DNA of 64,000 bases from Escherichia coli. GTDB lineage: Bacteria; Pseudomonadota; Gammaproteobacteria; Enterobacterales; Enterobacteriaceae. Numbering within the stretch: position 1 is the first letter of the stretch; the number at the start of each line of letters is the position of its first letter. The position numbers and the translations under genes are program-made. This document shows, one piece after another, positions 9,133 to 54,961 of the stretch. The notes below the pieces were generated by a model. It was not told the DNA's origin, did no database searches, and worked only from the letters and a program-made list of their open reading frames with translations. The stretch lies in the NCBI RefSeq assembly GCF_048403405.1, contig NZ_CP183129.1, one strand, 5' to 3'.

Positions 9133-10236
9133 TTATTTGGTTAAATTGGGGCTGCCACCACGATTTCTACGCAGTCTGCGTTTTACGCGCTTAATAAAGC
9201 GAGCAACTTTCCAGGCACGCTTAATGCAATATCCATAGAGGAAGAATGCTAGCAAAAAGAGCACCAGCATGACCCACTCCGGGACAAAATGAGAATATTC
9301 TGCCAGCACCCCAATGGAGGCGAGCAGAGCTGCGGCAAGGGTAATCAGCACAAACGCCTGGCGGGAAGTAAACCCGGCACGCATGATCAAATGGTGAATA
9401 TGCTGGCGATCAGGAGAGAACGGACTCATGCCTTTACGCAGGCGACGGTACATAATCGCCACCATATCCATTAGCGGAATGGCGATTATCCACAAAGCGG
9501 TAACCGGGCTGATGGGATGGGTTTTGCCCTGGGTCGTTTCGAGCAGGATCCAGATAACGGTAAAACCAATCAGCGTACTGCCCGCATCACCCATAAAGAC
9601 TTTGTAGCGGCGACCCAGGATACCAAGGTTAAGCATGATGTATGGCAGGATGGCGGCGATCATCGCAAAACACCAGATTGCAAGGCTGGTTTGCCCGTCG
9701 AACCACAAAATCATACCGATTGCTGCAAACGAGACGCAGGACAACCCGCCCAGCAAGCCATCAATGCCATCAACCATGTTGAACGCATTAATGGCCGCCC
9801 AGACGGCAAATAGCGTCAGGAAGTAGCCAAACGGTCCGAGCACCATCTCCCAGGAGCCAAAGATATAACCCAGGCTACTGAGATAAAGTTTGCCGAACAC
9901 CATCATAACAATGCCAACAGCGGCCTGTATGGTGGCACGGATTTTTACGCTGATATCAAAACGGTCATCCAGCGCGCCAATGAAAACAAGCACACCGGCA
10001 CAAGCGAGATAGAGAGATGCATGCGGAATATAGTAATCGACAATTCCGAACGTGAAGCAAATCCCTGCGTAGACCGAAATCCCCCCAACGAGAGGTATCA
10101 ATCCCTGGTGACGTTTGCGGAAGTTAGGTTTATCCACTAAACCGACTTTTTTTGCCACCTTACGGGCAAAAAACAGAAACAGTGTCGTGAATAAAAAAAT
10201 ACTGATGAGATCAGTACTCACTGTCAGTAAATTCAC
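9133..10236 (-). CDS. wecA: UDP-GlcNAc:undecaprenyl-phosphate GlcNAc-1-phosphate transferase WecA
   Basis: 367-aa polytopic membrane ORF MNLLTVSTDLISIF...; GTG start at 10234-10236. Confidence 0.92.
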   Translation of the reverse strand: MNLLTVSTDLISIFLFTTLFLFFARKVAKKVGLVDKPNFRKRHQGLIPLVGGISVYAGICFTFGIVDYYIPHASLYLACAGVLVFIGALDDRFDISVKIRATIQAAVGIVMMVFGKLYLSSLGYIFGSWEMVLGPFGYFLTLFAVWAAINAFNMVDGIDGLLGGLSCVSFAAIGMILWFDGQTSLAIWCFAMIAAILPYIMLNLGILGRRYKVFMGDAGSTLIGFTVIWILLETTQGKTHPISPVTALWIIAIPLMDMVAIMYRRLRKGMSPFSPDRQHIHHLIMRAGFTSRQAFVLITLAAALLASIGVLAEYSHFVPEWVMLVLFLLAFFLYGYCIKRAWKVARFIKRVKRRLRRNRGGSPNLTK

Positions 10237-18589: not shown

Positions 18590-18605
18590 GAACTCTGAAT
18601 CGCAC

Positions 18606-20230: not shown

Positions 20231-21121
20231 TTGGATTTACGCGATCTGAAAACCTTCCTGCATCTGGCGGAAAGCCGCCATTTTGGCCGCAGCGCACGGG
20301 CAATGCACGTTAGCCCGTCTACGCTTTCGCGACAAATACAGCGCCTGGAAGAAGATCTCGGTCAGCCGCTGTTTGTGCGCGATAACCGCACGGTAACGCT
20401 GACGGAAGCGGGCGAAGAACTGCGCGTTTTCGCCCAGCAAACGCTGTTGCAATATCAGCAATTGCGCCACACCATCGACCAGCAAGGACCGTCGCTCTCT
20501 GGCGAATTACATATCTTCTGCTCGGTGACCGCTGCCTACAGCCATCTGCCGCCGATTCTGGATCGCTTCCGCGCGGAACACCCGTCGGTGGAGATTAAAC
20601 TCACTACTGGTGATGCGGCAGATGCAATGGAAAAAGTGGTCACTGGCGAAGCGGACCTGGCGATTGCCGGGAAGCCGGAGACGCTACCCGGCGCAGTGGC
20701 GTTTTCGATGCTGGAGAATCTGGCAGTGGTGCTGATTGCCCCCGCGCTGCCCTGCCCGGTGCGTAATCAGGTGTCGGTAGAGAAGCCGGACTGGTCAACG
20801 GTGCCGTTTATCATGGCCGATCAGGGGCCGGTACGCCGCCGCATTGAACTGTGGTTTCGACGCAATAAAATCAGCAACCCGATGATTTACGCCACGGTTG
20901 GCGGACATGAAGCGATGGTATCGATGGTGGCGCTCGGCTGTGGCGTGGCGCTGTTGCCGGAAGTGGTGCTGGAAAACAGCCCCGAACCGGTGCGGAACCG
21001 CGTGATGATTTTAGAGCGCAGCGATGAGAAAACGCCGTTTGAGCTGGGCGTGTGTGCGCAAAAAAAGCGGCTGCATGAGCCGCTGATTGAGGCATTCTGG
21101 AAGATTTTGCCGAACCACTAA
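20231..21121 (+). CDS. ilvY: LysR-family transcriptional regulator IlvY
   Basis: ORF frame 20147-21121; the canonical N-terminus (M)[39 protein letters not shown] (HTH) begins at TTG 20231-20233. Confidence 0.9.
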
Positions 21122-22664: not shown

Positions 22665-24515
22665 TTAACCCCCCAGTTTCGATTTATCGCGCACCGCGCC
22701 TTTGTCGGCGCTGGTTGCCAGGCTGGCGTAGGCACGCAGCGCAAAGGAAACCTGGCGTTCACGGTTTTTCGGCGTCCAGGCTTTGTCGCCACGAGCTTCC
22801 TGCGCTTCACGACGCGCCGCCAGTTCGGCATCGCTTACCTGTAACTGAATGCCACGGTTCGGAATGTCGATAGCGATCAGGTCGCCGTCTTCAATCAGGC
22901 CAATGCTACCGCCGCTTGCCGCTTCCGGTGAGACGTGGCCGATAGAAAGGCCAGAGGTACCGCCAGAGAAACGACCGTCGGTGATCAGCGCACAGGCTTT
23001 ACCGAGACCCATTGATTTCAGGAAGCTGGTTGGGTAGAGCATTTCCTGCATCCCCGGACCGCCTTTCGGGCCTTCATAGCGGATCACCACCACATCGCCC
23101 GCGACAACCTTGCCGCCGAGAATCGCTTCTACCGCGTCGTCCTGGCTTTCGTATACTTTCGCCGGGCCGGTGAATTTGAGGATGCTGTCATCCACGCCTG
23201 CGGTTTTCACGATGCAGCCGTTTTCCGCAAAGTTACCGTAGAGTACCGCCAAGCCGCCGTCTTTGCTGTAGGCGTGTTCCAGCGAGCGGATACAGCCGTT
23301 TGCGCGATCGTCATCGAGAGAATCCCAACGGCAATCCTGCGAGAATGCCTGGGTGGTACGAATGCCCGCCGGGCCAGCGCGGAACATATTTTTTACCGCG
23401 TCATCCTGGGTCAGCATAACGTCGTATTGTTCCAGCGTTTGCGGCAACGTCAGGCCAAGTACGTTTTTCACATCACGGTTCAGTAATCCCGCACGATCCA
23501 GCTCGCCGAGAATACCGATAACACCACCAGCACGATGAACATCTTCCATATGGTATTTCTGGGTGCTCGGCGCAACTTTACACAGCTGCGGAACCTTGCG
23601 GGAAAGCTTATCGATATCACTCATGGTGAAGTCGATTTCCGCTTCCTGCGCCGCCGCCAGCAGGTGAAGTACGGTGTTGGTAGAGCCGCCCATCGCGATA
23701 TCGAGCGTCATGGCGTTTTCAAACGCCGCCTTACTGGCGATATTACGCGGCAGTGCACTTTCGTCATTTTGCTCGTAGTAACGTTTGGTCAATTCAACAA
23801 TGCGTTTACCGGCATTGAGGAACAGCTGCTTACGGTCGGCGTGAGTTGCCAGCAGCGAGCCGTTGCCCGGCTGCGACAGGCCCAGCGCTTCGGTCAGGCA
23901 GTTCATTGAGTTAGCGGTAAACATCCCGGAGCAGGAACCGCAGGTCGGACACGCGGAACGTTCAACCTGATCGCTCTGGGAGTCAGAAACTTTCGGGTCT
24001 GCGCCCTGGATCATCGCATCAACCAGATCGAGCTTAATGATCTGATCGGACAGTTTGGTTTTCCCGGCTTCCATCGGTCCGCCGGAAACAAAGATCACCG
24101 GAATATTCAGGCGCAGGGAAGCCATCAGCATCCCCGGGGTGATTTTGTCGCAGTTAGAGATGCAGACCATGGCGTCGGCGCAGTGAGCGTTGACCATATA
24201 CTCAACGGAATCAGCGATCAGTTCGCGAGATGGCAGTGAATAAAGCATCCCCCCGTGGCCCATGGCAATCCCATCATCCACCGCAATGGTGTTGAACTCT
24301 TTGGCAACGCCGCCAGCCGCTTCAATTTGTTCGGCGACCAGTTTACCGAGATCGCGCAGATGGACGTGACCCGGTACAAATTGGGTGAACGAGTTCACAA
24401 CCGCGATAATCGGCTTACCGAAATCGGCGTCGGTCATTCCGGTGGCGCGCCACAGCGCACGAGCACCCGCCATATTACGACCATGAGTGGTGGTGGCGGA
24501 ACGGTACTTAGGCAT
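22665..24515 (-). CDS. ilvD: dihydroxy-acid dehydratase IlvD
   Basis: 616-aa [30 protein letters not shown]...; ATG at 24513-24515. Confidence 0.97.
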
Positions 24516-50557: not shown

Positions 50558-51550
50558 TTACAGCAGAGAAGGGACGCTCTCGCGAACAGCTGCCGGCCAT
50601 ACACCACACTGAACCTGGCCGATATGCGGCAGTTGCAGCAGCAGCATGGTCAAACGAGACTGGCCGATACCGCCGCCGATGGTCTGCGGCATTTCACCGC
50701 GCAGCAGCGCCTGATGCCACTCCAGCTGCAGACGATCTTCATCACCGGTCAGCGCCAGCTGATGCTTCAACGTATCGGCATCCACGCGGATCCCCATGGA
50801 AGAAAGCTCAAACGCATCTTCCAGTACCGGGTTCCATACCAGAATATCGCCGTTCAGACCCGCATGGCCCAGCTCTGACGGGGTGCTCCAGTCATCATAA
50901 TCCGGTGCGCGCACGTCGTGACGATGACCATCACTCAACTTGCCGCCAATCCCGACGAGGAATACCGCGCCAAGATCTTTCGCAATCGCCCGCTCACGCC
51001 CTTTGGCATCGAGATCCGGATAACGAGACAGTAACTCCTGGCTGTGTACGAAGTGGATCTGATCCGGCAGGAACGGTGCCAGGCCAAACTCTTCGCTAAC
51101 CGCAGCTTCGGTTGCTTTAATTCCCGCCCAGATCGCCTCTACCGTGCTTTTCAGAGTCGAGAATTGACGCTCGCCGTCGCCCATTACGCGTTCCCAGTCC
51201 CACTGGTCTACATAGACCGAGTGCAACGGAGAAAGACGGTCTTCATCGGGGCGAAGGGCTTTCATGTGCGTGTACAGCCCTTCGCCCGCGCTGAAGTCGT
51301 GTTGCCCTAAGGTCTGACGTTTCCACTTCGCCAGTGAATGAACCACTTCGAACTGGGCATCAGGCAGAGCTTTTACTTTTACCTGCACCGCTTTTTCACA
51401 GCCCGACAAGTTATCCTGCGTGCCATCCCCCACACGGCTAAGAATCGGCGCCTGGACTTCGATCAGCCCCAGACGTTCTTCCAGTTGACGAGAAAAGTGA
51501 GATTTCACGAAGCTAATTTGGCGTTGTTTGGCAATGTAAGCGGTTTTCAT
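50558..51550 (-). CDS. asnA: aspartate-ammonia ligase (asparagine synthetase A)
   Basis: 330-aa [53 protein letters not shown]... Confidence 0.96.
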
Positions 51551-51701
51551 TTTTTATACTCCTGCGTCCTGTTGCTTATGATTAAGCAACAAAAACCGGC
51601 ACACATGCAATAATCATTCAATAAAAAGCCTAACTCACTTTTGATTCATTAAAAAAGAAGGCTAAAATAGAATGAATCATCAATCCGCATAAGAAAATCC
51701 T

Positions 51702-52160
51702 ATGGAAAATTATCTAATCGACAATCTGGACCGTGGCATCCTGGAAGCATTAATGGGCAATGCGCGCACCGCTTACGCCGAACTGGCGAAACAATTTGGC
51801 GTCAGTCCGGGGACGATTCACGTTCGAGTAGAGAAAATGAAGCAGGCGGGAATCATTACCGGGGCGCGTATTGATGTCAGCCCGAAGCAGCTTGGTTATG
51901 ACGTAGGCTGCTTTATCGGCATTATATTAAAGAGCGCCAAAGACTATCCTTCCGCGCTGGCAAAGCTGGAAAGCCTCGATGAAGTCACTGAAGCCTATTA
52001 CACAACCGGCCACTACAGCATCTTTATAAAAGTGATGTGCCGTTCGATCGATGCTCTCCAGCATGTACTTATCAACAAGATCCAAACAATTGATGAAATT
52101 CAGTCCACCGAGACACTGATCGTCCTGCAGAACCCGATCATGCGTACCATTAAGCCCTGA
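51702..52160 (+). CDS. asnC: Lrp/AsnC-family regulator AsnC
   Basis: 152-aa ORF MENYLIDNLDRGILEALMGNARTAYAELAKQFGVSPGTIHVRVEKMKQAGIITG... Confidence 0.96.
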   Translation: MENYLIDNLDRGILEALMGNARTAYAELAKQFGVSPGTIHVRVEKMKQAGIITGARIDVSPKQLGYDVGCFIGIILKSAKDYPSALAKLESLDEVTEAYYTTGHYSIFIKVMCRSIDALQHVLINKIQTIDEIQSTETLIVLQNPIMRTIKP

Positions 52161-52169
52161 TCGGCTTTT

Positions 52170-52249
52170 TTAATCCCATACTTTTCCACAGGTAGATCCC
52201 AACGCGTTCACAGCGTACAATACGCCACTCTTAATAAAGGTGGCGGTTT
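52170..52249 (+). promoter_or_regulatory. mioC promoter region with DnaA-box-like sequence
   Basis: ttttccaca at 52182-52190 approximates the DnaA box consensus TTWTNCACA, upstream of mioC. Confidence 0.5.
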
Positions 52250-52693
52250 ATGGCAGATATCACTCTTATCAGCGGCAGCACCCTCGGCGGTGCCGAATAT
52301 GTGGCAGAACACCTGGCTGAAAAGCTGGAAGAGGCGGGTTTTACCACCGAAACGCTGCACGGTCCGCTGTTGGAAGATTTATCTGCCTCGGGGATCTGGC
52401 TGGTTATCAGCTCAACCCACGGTGCCGGAGATATTCCGGATAACCTTTCTCCTTTCTATGAAGCATTGCAGGAACAGAAGCCCGATCTTTCTGCGGTCCG
52501 CTTTGGCGCTATCGGTATTGGCAGTCGTGAATATGACACCTTTTGTGGGGCTATCGATAAACTCGAGGCAGAACTCAAAAATTCCGGTGCAAAACAGACA
52601 GGCGAAACACTGAAGATCAACATTCTTGATCACGACATCCCGGAAGATCCGGCAGAAGAATGGCTGGGATCGTGGATTAATTTACTCAAATAA
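52250..52693 (+). CDS. mioC: FMN-binding flavodoxin-like protein MioC
   Basis: 147-aa ORF MADITLISGSTLGGAEYVAEHLAEKLEEAGFTTETLHGPLLEDL... (flavodoxin signature). Confidence 0.95.
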   Translation: MADITLISGSTLGGAEYVAEHLAEKLEEAGFTTETLHGPLLEDLSASGIWLVISSTHGAGDIPDNLSPFYEALQEQKPDLSAVRFGAIGIGSREYDTFCGAIDKLEAELKNSGAKQTGETLKINILDHDIPEDPAEEWLGSWINLLK

Positions 52694-52705
52694 GTATACA
52701 GATCG

Positions 52706-52975
52706 TGCGATCTACTGTGGATAACTCTGTCAGGAAGCTTGGATCAACCGGTAGTTATCCAAAGAACAACCGTTGTTCAGTTTTTGAGTTGTGTATAACC
52801 CCTCATTCTGATCCCAGCTTATACGGTCCAGGATCACCGATCATTCACAGTTAATGATCCTTTCCAGGTTGTTGATCTTAAAAGCCGGATCCTTGTTATC
52901 CACAGGGCAGTGCGATCCTAATAAGAGATCACAATAGAACAGATCTCTAAATAAATAGATCTTCTTTTTAATACC
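52706..52975. other. oriC: chromosomal replication origin oriC
   Basis: DnaA boxes (tgtggataa at 52716-52724; ttatccaca at 52896-52904), three AT-rich 13-mers ending in gatc (52918-52962), and 14 GATC tetramers by my count between 52701 and 52982. Confidence 0.95.
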
Positions 52976-53071
52976 CAGGATCCCAGGTCTTTCTCAAGCC
53001 GACAAAGTTGAGTAGAATCCACGGCCCGGGCTTCAATCCATTTTCATACCGCGTTATGCGAGGCAATCACC

Positions 53072-54961
53072 ATGTTTTATCCGGATCCTTTTGACGTCAT
53101 CATCATTGGCGGGGGTCATGCAGGCACCGAGGCCGCGATGGCCGCGGCGCGTATGGGTCAACAGACTCTGCTTTTGACACACAATATCGACACTCTGGGG
53201 CAGATGAGCTGCAACCCGGCGATCGGCGGTATTGGGAAGGGACATCTGGTAAAAGAAGTGGATGCACTCGGCGGTCTGATGGCGAAAGCGATCGATCAGG
53301 CGGGTATCCAGTTTAGGATACTAAACGCAAGCAAGGGACCAGCGGTTCGCGCTACCCGTGCTCAGGCGGATCGTGTGCTCTACCGGCAGGCGGTACGTAC
53401 GGCGCTGGAGAACCAACCGAACCTGATGATCTTCCAGCAGGCGGTTGAAGATCTTATTGTCGAAAACGATCGCGTGGTCGGTGCTGTTACCCAAATGGGA
53501 CTGAAGTTCCGTGCCAAAGCCGTCGTGCTCACCGTTGGGACGTTCCTCGACGGTAAAATTCATATCGGTCTGGATAACTACAGCGGTGGTCGTGCTGGTG
53601 ATCCGCCGTCCATTCCGCTCTCTCGCCGTTTGCGTGAACTGCCGCTGCGCGTTGGTCGTCTGAAAACCGGGACACCGCCGCGTATTGATGCGCGTACTAT
53701 CGACTTCAGCGTGCTGGCGCAACAGCATGGCGATAACCCAATGCCGGTATTCTCGTTTATGGGTAATGCGTCCCAGCATCCACAGCAGGTGCCGTGTTAT
53801 ATCACCCATACCAACGAGAAAACCCATGATGTGATCCGCAGTAACCTCGATCGTAGCCCAATGTATGCAGGGGTGATCGAAGGTGTCGGCCCACGCTACT
53901 GCCCGTCGATCGAAGACAAAGTCATGCGCTTCGCCGACAGAAATCAGCATCAGATCTTCCTTGAACCGGAAGGGCTGACCTCAAACGAAATTTATCCGAA
54001 CGGTATCTCCACCAGCCTGCCGTTCGATGTGCAGATGCAAATCGTCCGCTCCATGCAGGGGATGGAAAACGCGAAGATCGTGCGTCCGGGTTATGCCATT
54101 GAGTATGACTTCTTCGATCCACGCGACCTGAAACCGACGCTGGAGAGCAAGTTTATCCAGGGGCTGTTCTTTGCTGGTCAGATTAACGGCACTACCGGTT
54201 ACGAAGAAGCCGCTGCGCAAGGTTTGCTGGCTGGTCTTAACGCTGCCCGTCTGTCTGCTGACAAAGAAGGTTGGGCTCCGGCGCGTTCTCAGGCGTATCT
54301 CGGCGTACTGGTTGATGACCTGTGCACTTTAGGAACCAAAGAACCGTATCGTATGTTTACTTCGCGCGCAGAATATCGTCTGATGCTGCGCGAAGATAAT
54401 GCGGATCTGCGTTTGACTGAAATCGGTCGTGAACTGGGCCTGGTGGATGACGAACGTTGGGCGCGCTTTAACGAGAAACTTGAGAATATCGAGCGTGAGC
54501 GTCAGCGTCTGAAATCGACCTGGGTAACCCCGTCGGCGGAAGCTGCAGCCGAAGTGAATGCTCACCTGACTGCGCCGCTTTCCCGTGAAGCCAGTGGTGA
54601 AGATCTGCTGCGTCGTCCGGAAATGACTTATGAAAAATTAACCACGCTGACGCCGTTTGCCCCTGCGTTGACAGACGAACAGGCGGCGGAACAGGTTGAG
54701 ATTCAGGTTAAATACGAAGGTTATATCGCGCGCCAGCAAGATGAGATCGAAAAGCAGCTGCGTAACGAGAACACCCTGCTACCAGCGACGCTGGATTACC
54801 GCCAGGTATCCGGTCTTTCTAACGAAGTGATCGCCAAACTTAACGATCACAAACCGGCCTCTATCGGTCAGGCTTCGCGTATTTCTGGCGTCACGCCTGC
54901 GGCCATCTCCATTCTGCTGGTGTGGCTGAAAAAACAGGGTATGCTGCGTCGTAGCGCATAA
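53072..54961 (+). CDS. mnmG: tRNA uridine-5-carboxymethylaminomethyl synthesis enzyme MnmG (GidA)
   Basis: 629-aa [56 protein letters not shown] (FAD GxGxxG). Confidence 0.97.

What the first reader, a model, noticed from the sequence alone, without database searches (positions are those of the whole stretch)
52701..52982. oriC: extreme GATC clustering, DnaA boxes and AT-rich 13-mers; flanked by DnaA-box promoters
I count 14 GATC tetramers in about 280 bp, against roughly one expected by chance. Inverted DnaA boxes sit at 52716-52724 and 52896-52904, and three 13-mers ending in gatc form the unwinding element at 52918-52962. This is the canonical origin, not a new feature, but it anchors the whole window and explains the strand organisation around it.
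Basis: partly seen in the sequence, partly recalled or inferred. Interest (0 to 1): 0.2.

Follow-up and report, generated by a model that had tools for sequence, protein, structure and literature searches.

The report
E. coli chromosomal replication origin oriC
This stretch is the ordinary, textbook chromosomal replication origin (oriC) of Escherichia coli, differing from the laboratory strain K-12 by one base, so it is correctly identified and not new.

Summary
There are 14 GATC in 52701-52982, against 1.0-1.4 expected, and the next-densest 282-bp stretch of the window has 7. Perfect inverted DnaA boxes sit at 52716-52724 (R4) and 52896-52904 (R1). Three 13-mers sit at 52918-52961.

The 436 bp around the region align without gaps to K-12 MG1655 oriC and its flanks, with 2 mismatches, only one of them inside the origin. 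The region lies between mioC and mnmG/gidA. The whole window is collinear with K-12 3,914,704-3,978,151 on the reverse strand. The cumulative G-C minimum of the window falls at 53104, and in a 119-kb K-12 span it falls 147 bp from the annotated oriC.

The single origin difference (52771) is the unconstrained centre base of the Fis-site palindrome. The 71 bp around it are identical in 1,263 of 5,407 matching E. coli genomes, and the site had three alleles among the eight origins compared.

One sub-claim is only half right. The mioC promoter has a DnaA box (52182-52190). The gidA promoter does not; published work attributes its cell-cycle shut-off to SeqA binding at the adjacent GATC cluster.

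Verdict: already known, low interest.

The parts
52182..52190 (+). mioC-promoter DnaA box TTTTCCACA (the old 'R5' mioC box). DnaA binding here represses mioC transcription, which otherwise reads into oriC.
   Evidence: Consensus scan; the surrounding 133 bp differ from K-12 at 2 positions, both outside the box; function from PMC5835720 and PMC4446571.
52250..52693 (+). mioC (FMN-binding flavodoxin-like protein), transcribed towards oriC.
   Evidence: ORF; Pfam Flavodoxin_1 3.1e-28; RefSeq annotation of identical hits.
52692..52711 (-). Rob ('right oriC-binding') site ATCGCACGATCTGTATACTT, just outside box R4. It carries two of the 14 GATC.
   Evidence: Exact match to the sequence listed in PMC4285127 Table 2.
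52716..52724 (-). DnaA box R4 (TTATCCACA, high affinity), the outer end of the right half of the DnaA-oligomerization region (DOR).
   Evidence: identical to K-12; role from PMC5716108.
52725..52763 (.). Right-half low-affinity DnaA sites (C1, I3, C2, C3 in published order), including the old box R3, TTATCCAAA, at 52755-52763 (+).
   Evidence: R3 match; order of sites from PMC5716108; identical to K-12. Exact 9-mer limits of the C and I sites were not mapped here.
52764..52778 (.). Fis site palindrome GAACAAC[C]GTTGTTC. K-12 has T at 52771 on this strand, which is the only difference from K-12 inside oriC.
   Evidence: One-mismatch match to GAACAACAGTTGTTC (PMC4285127 Table 2). It still fits the Fis consensus GnnYAnnnnnTRnnC (PMC10380432). 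Allele survey.
52790..52798 (-). DnaA box R2 (TTATACACA, moderate affinity), the middle of the DOR.
   Evidence: PMC5716108.
52799..52849 (.). Left-half low-affinity sites I2, I1, tau2 and R5M (TCATTCACA at 52841-52849, +). The region also holds the listed H-NS site ATGATCGGTGATCCTG at 52829-52844.
   Evidence: R5M match; H-NS sequence match to PMC4285127 Table 2; order from PMC5716108; identical to K-12.
52865..52877 (-). Primary IHF-binding core GATCAACAACCTG, between R5M and R1.
   Evidence: Exact match to PMC4285127 Table 2; position between R1 and R5M as in PMC10325909.
52896..52904 (+). DnaA box R1 (TTATCCACA, high affinity), next to the unwinding element.
52918..52961 (-). Duplex unwinding element: 13-mers R (52918-52930), M (52933-52945) and L (52949-52961). 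AGATCT 6-mers lie at 52941-52946 and 52957-52962.
   Evidence: Exact matches; consensus GATCTnTTnTTTT from PMC5742627; local A+T maximum.
52962..52976 (-). A+T-rich cluster flanking 13-mer L, just outside the minimal origin. It assists unwinding.
   Evidence: Exact match to K-12 GGGTATTAAAAAGAA; role from PMC5742627 and PMC10380432.
52991..53018 (+). Promoter-like site (TTCTCA, 16-nt spacer, TAGAAT) upstream of mnmG/gidA, reading away from oriC. It is a candidate gidA promoter and has no DnaA box.
   Evidence: Consensus scan only (2 sites found against 1.7 expected, so weak on its own); identical to K-12; literature on the gidA promoter.
53072..54961 (+). mnmG (gidA), the first gene of the replichore on this side of the origin.
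   Evidence: ORF; Pfam GIDA 1.1e-176; RefSeq annotation.

Best explanation
Window 52716-52961 is the minimal chromosomal replication origin, oriC, of an Escherichia coli strain other than K-12. With its accessory flanks it spans about 52692-52983. It is written here on the strand opposite to the conventional K-12 orientation.

The mechanism below is taken from published K-12 work. It is transferred by near-identity of sequence and was not tested here.
- DnaA stays bound to the high-affinity boxes R1 and R4 and the moderate-affinity box R2.
- When ATP-DnaA rises, it fills two oppositely oriented arrays of low-affinity sites: R1-tau1-R5M-tau2-I1-I2 on one side and C3-C2-I3-C1-R4 on the other.
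- IHF bends the DNA between R1 and R5M.
- The A+T-rich 13-mers then melt. The T-rich single strand is held by R1- and R5M-bound DnaA, and two DnaB helicases are loaded for bidirectional replication.
- After firing, the hemimethylated GATC cluster is bound by SeqA. This sequesters the origin and blocks the low-affinity sites until Dam remethylates them.
- Fis, bound between R2 and R3, opposes DnaA and IHF loading earlier in the cycle.
- mioC transcription into the origin is repressed by DnaA at its promoter box. gidA transcription away from the origin is silenced during sequestration.
For: Shown here:
- Gap-free alignment of 436 bp to MG1655 oriC and flanks, with 2 mismatches, one of them inside oriC. 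RefSeq annotates oriC at that position.
- The 431-bp region is found in 5,424 of 5,426 complete E. coli genomes, always on chromosomes and never on plasmids. It is 100% identical in at least 20 listed strains.
- The whole 64-kb window is collinear with K-12 3,914,704-3,978,151 at 95-99% identity.
- The flanking genes are mioC and mnmG.
- All named elements match at exact positions.
- There are 14 GATC against about 1 expected.
- The cumulative G-C minimum is at 53104, and at 147 bp from oriC in 119 kb of K-12.
- No Rfam family and no ORF of 50 aa or more lies within the intergenic stretch.
- Eight sampled E. coli origins show no variation in R1, R2, R5M, the IHF core or the three 13-mers.

From the literature: origin anatomy and mechanism (PMC5742627; PMC5716108; PMC4285127; PMC10380432; PMC4446571; PMC5835720).
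Against: No result contradicts this reading. Three limits apply.
- Origin firing in this particular strain is inferred from sequence identity and was not measured.
- dnaA, seqA and dam lie outside the window, so their presence in this genome was not checked.
- The one substitution lies in the Fis site, and its effect on Fis binding is unknown.
Confidence: 0.98

Rival explanations
1. The region is a Dam/SeqA-regulated GATC cluster with DnaA boxes that controls transcription of the neighbouring genes, as at the dnaA promoter, and is not an origin.
For: GATC clusters and DnaA boxes also occur at regulated promoters (PMC5835720). The gidA promoter next door is co-sequestered.
Against: The sequence differs by one base from the experimentally defined minimal oriC, which includes the unwinding 13-mers and the IHF site. 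The skew switch sits here.
Confidence: 0.005
2. The region is an ectopic or extrachromosomal copy of oriC, such as a minichromosome, a plasmid-borne oriC or a second origin, and not the native locus.
For: oriC plasmids exist in laboratories. A few genomes show two 'places' for the query.
Against: All 64 kb are collinear with the native K-12 neighbourhood from glmU to wecF. None of 5,773 matching places is on a plasmid. The two-place genomes listed are assemblies whose record starts or ends inside oriC, so the match is split (H78-H80).
Confidence: 0.005
3. The region is oriC, but a functionally altered allele: the change at the centre of the Fis site shifts Fis occupancy and therefore initiation timing relative to K-12.
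For: The only difference from K-12 inside oriC is the centre base of the Fis palindrome. That position had three alleles among the eight origins compared.
Against: The position is an 'n' in the Fis consensus. The 71 bp around it are identical in 1,263 of 5,407 matching genomes, so this is a common natural form. [quoted passage not shown]
Confidence: 0.05

Closest known systems
Escherichia coli K-12 oriC (minimal 245-bp origin; RefSeq feature NC_000913.3 3,925,744-3,925,975)
   Same: It has the same locus (mioC-oriC-mnmG), length and element order. Sequences are identical for R1, R2, R3, R4, R5M, the IHF core, the Rob and H-NS sites, the three 13-mers, the A+T cluster and all 11 internal GATC.
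   Different: One base differs at window 52771, the centre of the Fis palindrome: A on the conventional K-12 strand becomes G here. The window is written on the opposite strand. The RefSeq feature maps to 52730-52961 and stops short of R4.
oriC alleles of other E. coli lineages (O157:H7, O104:H4, O127:H6 and others)
   Same: The 301-bp origin is 100% identical to that of strains such as O157:H7 EC10, 120899 and GF75. It is at least 98.3% identical in every full-length match listed.
   Different: Other lineages carry 1-5 substitutions. These fall mostly in spacers, although R4, R3 and one GATC are hit in single strains. This window shows none of those substitutions.
dnaA promoter, datA and DARS loci (other chromosomal DnaA-box clusters)
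   Same: They also have clusters of DnaA boxes, with IHF and/or Fis sites and, at the dnaA promoter, GATC sites.
   Different: None of them has the 13-mer unwinding element or lies between mioC and mnmG. They regulate DnaA and do not initiate replication.

Membership tests
E. coli-type chromosomal origin oriC | Sequence homology to the experimentally defined minimal oriC of K-12 | tested here: met
   Gap-free alignment with one mismatch inside the origin. RefSeq annotates origin_of_replication at the aligned K-12 position.
E. coli-type chromosomal origin oriC | Location between mioC and gidA (mnmG) in the native chromosomal neighbourhood | tested here: met
   ORFs and Pfam hits; 64-kb collinearity with K-12; annotation of matching genomes.
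E. coli-type chromosomal origin oriC | [quoted passage not shown] | tested here: met
   R4 52716-52724 (-), R2 52790-52798 (-), R5M 52841-52849 (+), R1 52896-52904 (+). Layout as in PMC5716108.
E. coli-type chromosomal origin oriC | Duplex unwinding element of three A+T-rich 13-mers (GATCTnTTnTTTT) beside R1, plus a flanking A+T cluster | tested here: met
   Exact L, M and R 13-mers at 52918-52961 and the A+T cluster at 52962-52976. This is the local A+T maximum. Consensus from PMC5742627.
E. coli-type chromosomal origin oriC | Eleven Dam/SeqA GATC sites within the minimal origin | tested here: met
   11 GATC lie in 52716-52961 and 14 in 52701-52982, against about 1 expected. Published number from PMC5742627.
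E. coli-type chromosomal origin oriC | IHF site between R1 and R5M; Fis site between R2 and R3/C3 | tested here: met
   The IHF core is exact at 52865-52877. The Fis palindrome at 52764-52778 has one change at an unconstrained centre position and still fits GnnYAnnnnnTRnnC.
E. coli-type chromosomal origin oriC | Switch of GC skew (leading- versus lagging-strand composition) at the site | tested here: met
   Cumulative G-C minimum at 53104. Skew is -0.047 to the left and +0.041 to the right. In 119 kb of K-12 the minimum is 147 bp from oriC.
E. coli-type chromosomal origin oriC | Replication actually initiates here in a DnaA-dependent way | not testable with these tools
   This needs marker-frequency sequencing or a minichromosome assay with the source strain's DNA. 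It is inferred from near-identity to K-12.
E. coli-type chromosomal origin oriC | The genome encodes DnaA, Dam and SeqA to act on the site | not testable with these tools
   In K-12, dnaA lies at 3,882,326-3,883,729, outside the span covered by the window. seqA and dam are also outside it.

The most novel reading that the evidence does not exclude
The centre base of the oriC Fis palindrome (window 52771) is a recurrently mutated position with three alleles. The alleles would tune Fis occupancy, and therefore the timing or synchrony of initiation during fast growth, differently in different E. coli lineages. The window would carry one of the tuned alleles.
Probability: 0.05. Interest if true: 0.25.

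Novelty: already known. Interest (0 to 1): 0.04.

Why it matters
The main value is as an anchor for reading the rest of the window. It fixes the organism (E. coli), the orientation of the window (reverse of K-12) and the replichore boundary. That boundary explains the gene-strand bias and the skew on either side. It adds nothing to what is known about replication initiation. The one new detail is minor: natural origin variation in the eight alleles compared leaves R1, R2, R5M, the IHF core and the 13-mers unchanged, while the centre of the Fis site takes three different bases.

Tried and rejected
(1) I looked for any known structured RNA in 51500-54000 with permissive Rfam thresholds and found none.

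(2) I looked for coding potential inside the intergenic stretch. Only chance ORFs of 49 aa or fewer lie within it; a 63-aa antisense ORF reaches in from the mnmG coding region.

(3) I tried to get the exact 9-mer coordinates of the low-affinity sites (tau1/2, I1-3, C1-3) from the primary paper, Rozgaja et al. 2011 (PMC3192301). It is not held, and a text search for box sequences found no paper listing them. These sites are therefore reported as intervals in published order and not as exact boxes.

(4) I scanned for a DnaA box at the gidA promoter. Nothing with 2 or fewer mismatches lies between 52905 and 53076, in agreement with PMC5835720. The 'DnaA-box promoters on both sides' reading is rejected for the gidA side.

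(5) The promoter scan is not informative on its own: it found 2 sites against 1.7 expected in shuffles.

(6) I considered a plasmid or minichromosome origin and rejected it: no plasmid hits and 64-kb chromosomal collinearity.

(7) Scripts 12 and 15 failed because loci are stored together in one file. The comparison was re-run successfully.

Full report
**Observation**

A direct count gives 14 GATC tetramers starting between 52701 and 52979. The region's base composition predicts 1.0 and the window's own GATC density predicts 1.44 per 282 bp. The Poisson tail is 5e-10. The next-densest non-overlapping 282-bp stretch anywhere in the 64 kb holds only 7.

The perfect DnaA box TTATCCACA occurs on the minus strand at 52716-52724 and on the plus strand at 52896-52904, so the two boxes are inverted. 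Three 13-mers that end in GATC on the plus strand lie at 52918-52930, 52933-52945 and 52949-52961. This 45-bp stretch is 73% A+T and contains the local A+T maximum of 52001-53500.

**Identity**

The reverse strand of window 52640-53075 aligns to E. coli K-12 MG1655 3,925,630-3,926,065 over 436 columns with no gaps and two mismatches. RefSeq annotates 'origin_of_replication, oriC' at 3,925,744-3,925,975 between mnmG and mioC. That feature corresponds to window 52730-52961 and stops short of box R4.

The flanking ORFs are mioC (52250-52693; Flavodoxin_1, 3.1e-28) and mnmG/gidA (53072-54961; GIDA, 1.1e-176). A 431-bp query across the region matches 5,424 of 5,426 complete E. coli genomes. All matches are on chromosomes and none on plasmids, and at least 20 listed strains are 100% identical. 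The entire window is collinear with K-12 3,914,704-3,978,151 on the reverse strand at 95-99% identity. The only large difference is a roughly 700-bp insertion. The window is therefore the native oriC neighbourhood of a non-K-12 E. coli.

**Anatomy in window coordinates**

Exact matches to sequences printed in the literature (PMC4285127 Table 2) and to the box consensus place the elements as follows:

| Element | Coordinates |
|---|---|
| Rob site | 52692-52711 |
| R4 | 52716-52724 (-) |
| R3 | 52755-52763 (+) |
| Fis palindrome | 52764-52778 |
| R2 | 52790-52798 (-) |
| H-NS site | 52829-52844 |
| R5M | 52841-52849 (+) |
| IHF core GATCAACAACCTG | 52865-52877 (-) |
| R1 | 52896-52904 (+) |
| 13-mers R, M, L | 52918-52961 |
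| A+T cluster | 52962-52976 |

The low-affinity sites lie in the intervals between these elements. Their published order is R1-tau1-R5M-tau2-I1-I2 and C3-C2-I3-C1-R4 (PMC5716108). I could not retrieve their exact 9-mers.

Eleven of the 14 GATC lie inside the minimal origin (52716-52961), which equals the published number (PMC5742627). Two more lie in the Rob site beyond R4, and one lies in the BamHI site beyond the A+T cluster.

**The one difference from K-12**

Window 52771 is C, where K-12 has T on this strand (G against A in the conventional K-12 orientation). It is the centre base of the Fis palindrome: GAACAACAGTTGTTC in K-12 and GAACAACGGTTGTTC in the same orientation here. The centre is an unconstrained position of the Fis consensus GnnYAnnnnnTRnnC (PMC10380432).

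A 71-bp query centred on the site is 100% identical in 1,263 of the 5,407 genomes that match it, including O157:H7. Eight origins were compared: the window, K-12, O104:H4, AR434, EcPF14, O127:H6, 22AR0747 and 2 HS-C. The position took three bases among them (C, T, G on the window strand). R1, R2, R5M, the IHF core and the three 13-mers did not vary at all. This is ordinary natural polymorphism.

**Skew and strand organisation**

The cumulative G-C curve of the window reaches its minimum at 53104. Mean skew is -0.047 to the left of the origin and +0.041 to the right. Only 11 kb of the window lie to the right, so I repeated the calculation on 119 kb of the collinear K-12 reference. There the minimum is at 3,925,597, which is 147 bp from the annotated oriC.

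I transferred K-12 annotation onto the window. All 12 genes on the mnmG side (mnmG, rsmG, atpIBEFHAGDC, glmU) point away from the origin, as do 38 of 51 features on the mioC side. Near the origin, mioC and asnC, and then viaA and ravA beyond asnA, point towards it. The strongly negative skew at 30-38 kb is the rrnC ribosomal RNA operon on the minus strand.

**The flanking promoters**

The title's 'flanked by DnaA-box promoters' is half right. Upstream of mioC there is a consensus box TTTTCCACA at 52182-52190, and the box is identical to K-12. This is the well-studied mioC ('R5') box through which DnaA represses mioC transcription (PMC5835720; PMC4446571).

On the other side, no box with two or fewer mismatches lies between R1 and the mnmG coding region. 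The literature states plainly that the gidA promoter has no DnaA boxes. Its cell-cycle shut-off is attributed to SeqA binding at the adjacent hemimethylated GATC cluster. A promoter-like site (TTCTCA, 16-nt spacer, TAGAAT) lies at 52991-53018, but the scan is no better than chance on its own.

**Mechanism**

The mechanism is inferred by identity with K-12 and was not tested here. DnaA held at R1, R2 and R4 nucleates ATP-DnaA filling of the two oppositely oriented low-affinity arrays. IHF bends the R1-R5M spacer. The 13-mers then melt, and the T-rich strand is captured by R1- and R5M-bound DnaA. DnaB is loaded for bidirectional replication. After firing, SeqA binds the hemimethylated GATC cluster and sequesters the origin until Dam remethylates it. 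Fis opposes DnaA and IHF loading earlier in the cycle (PMC5742627, PMC5716108, PMC4285127).

**Rivals**

- A purely transcriptional GATC and DnaA-box cluster is excluded by the near-identity to the defined origin and by the skew switch.
- An ectopic or plasmid copy is excluded by 64-kb collinearity and the absence of plasmid hits. Genomes with 'two places' are assemblies whose record starts or ends inside oriC.
- No known RNA family and no ORF of 50 aa or more within the intergenic stretch competes for the region.
- A functionally altered Fis allele cannot be excluded. [quoted passage not shown]

**Verdict**

The feature is already known and interest is very low. Its use is as an anchor for reading the rest of the window.

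Noticed in passing
window 30940-31638: There is a roughly 700-bp insertion relative to K-12 between trpT (the end of the rrnC operon) and hdfR. It is an IS200C element. Its 152-aa transposase is on the minus strand, within ORF 31037-31546 (Pfam Y1_Tnp, 3.8e-38). Only 6 of 5,426 complete E. coli genomes carry a copy at this site.
   Followed up: yes
window 25789-27435 (- strand): ilvG is an intact 548-aa ORF here, whereas K-12 MG1655 annotates it as a pseudogene. This again shows that the window is not from K-12.
   Followed up: partly
window 52771: The centre base of the oriC Fis palindrome took three bases among the eight origins compared: C in the window, T in K-12, and G in O104:H4, AR434, EcPF14, O127:H6, 22AR0747 and 2 HS-C.
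   Followed up: partly
L007 (O127:H6 EPEC1) and L009 (strain 2 HS-C), aligned to window 52721 and 52745: Single strains carry changes inside core elements. O127:H6 EPEC1 has A to G in box R4, at the position of window 52721. Strain 2 HS-C has C to T at window 52745, which destroys the GATC at 52742-52745. Each was seen in one sampled genome only and was not verified further.
   Followed up: no
window 9486-9494 and window-wide: A perfect TTATCCACA box lies inside the wecA-equivalent coding region. The box consensus TTWTNCACA occurs 14 times in the window against 4.7 expected, and no shuffle out of 100 reached 14. This fits published statements that DnaA sites are concentrated near oriC.
   Followed up: no
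window-wide; secondary clusters at 53221-53502 and 23969-24250: GATC is over-represented across the whole window: 327 against 244 expected, with no shuffle out of 100 reaching 327. The two next-densest 282-bp stretches hold 7 each. One is in the 5' part of mnmG, right beside oriC. The other is in the ilvD-equivalent region.
   Followed up: no
K-12 NC_000913.3 3,925,744-3,925,975 (window 52730-52961): The RefSeq 'oriC' feature is 232 bp long and ends before DnaA box R4 (52716-52724). It is therefore shorter than the 245-bp minimal origin described in the literature.
   Followed up: partly
window 18591-18601 and 21118-21121: There are two small breaks in collinearity with K-12, where about 50 bp and 55 bp of K-12 sequence are absent or diverged. 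They fall near ppiC-ilvC and between ilvA and ilvY. They were not examined.
   Followed up: no
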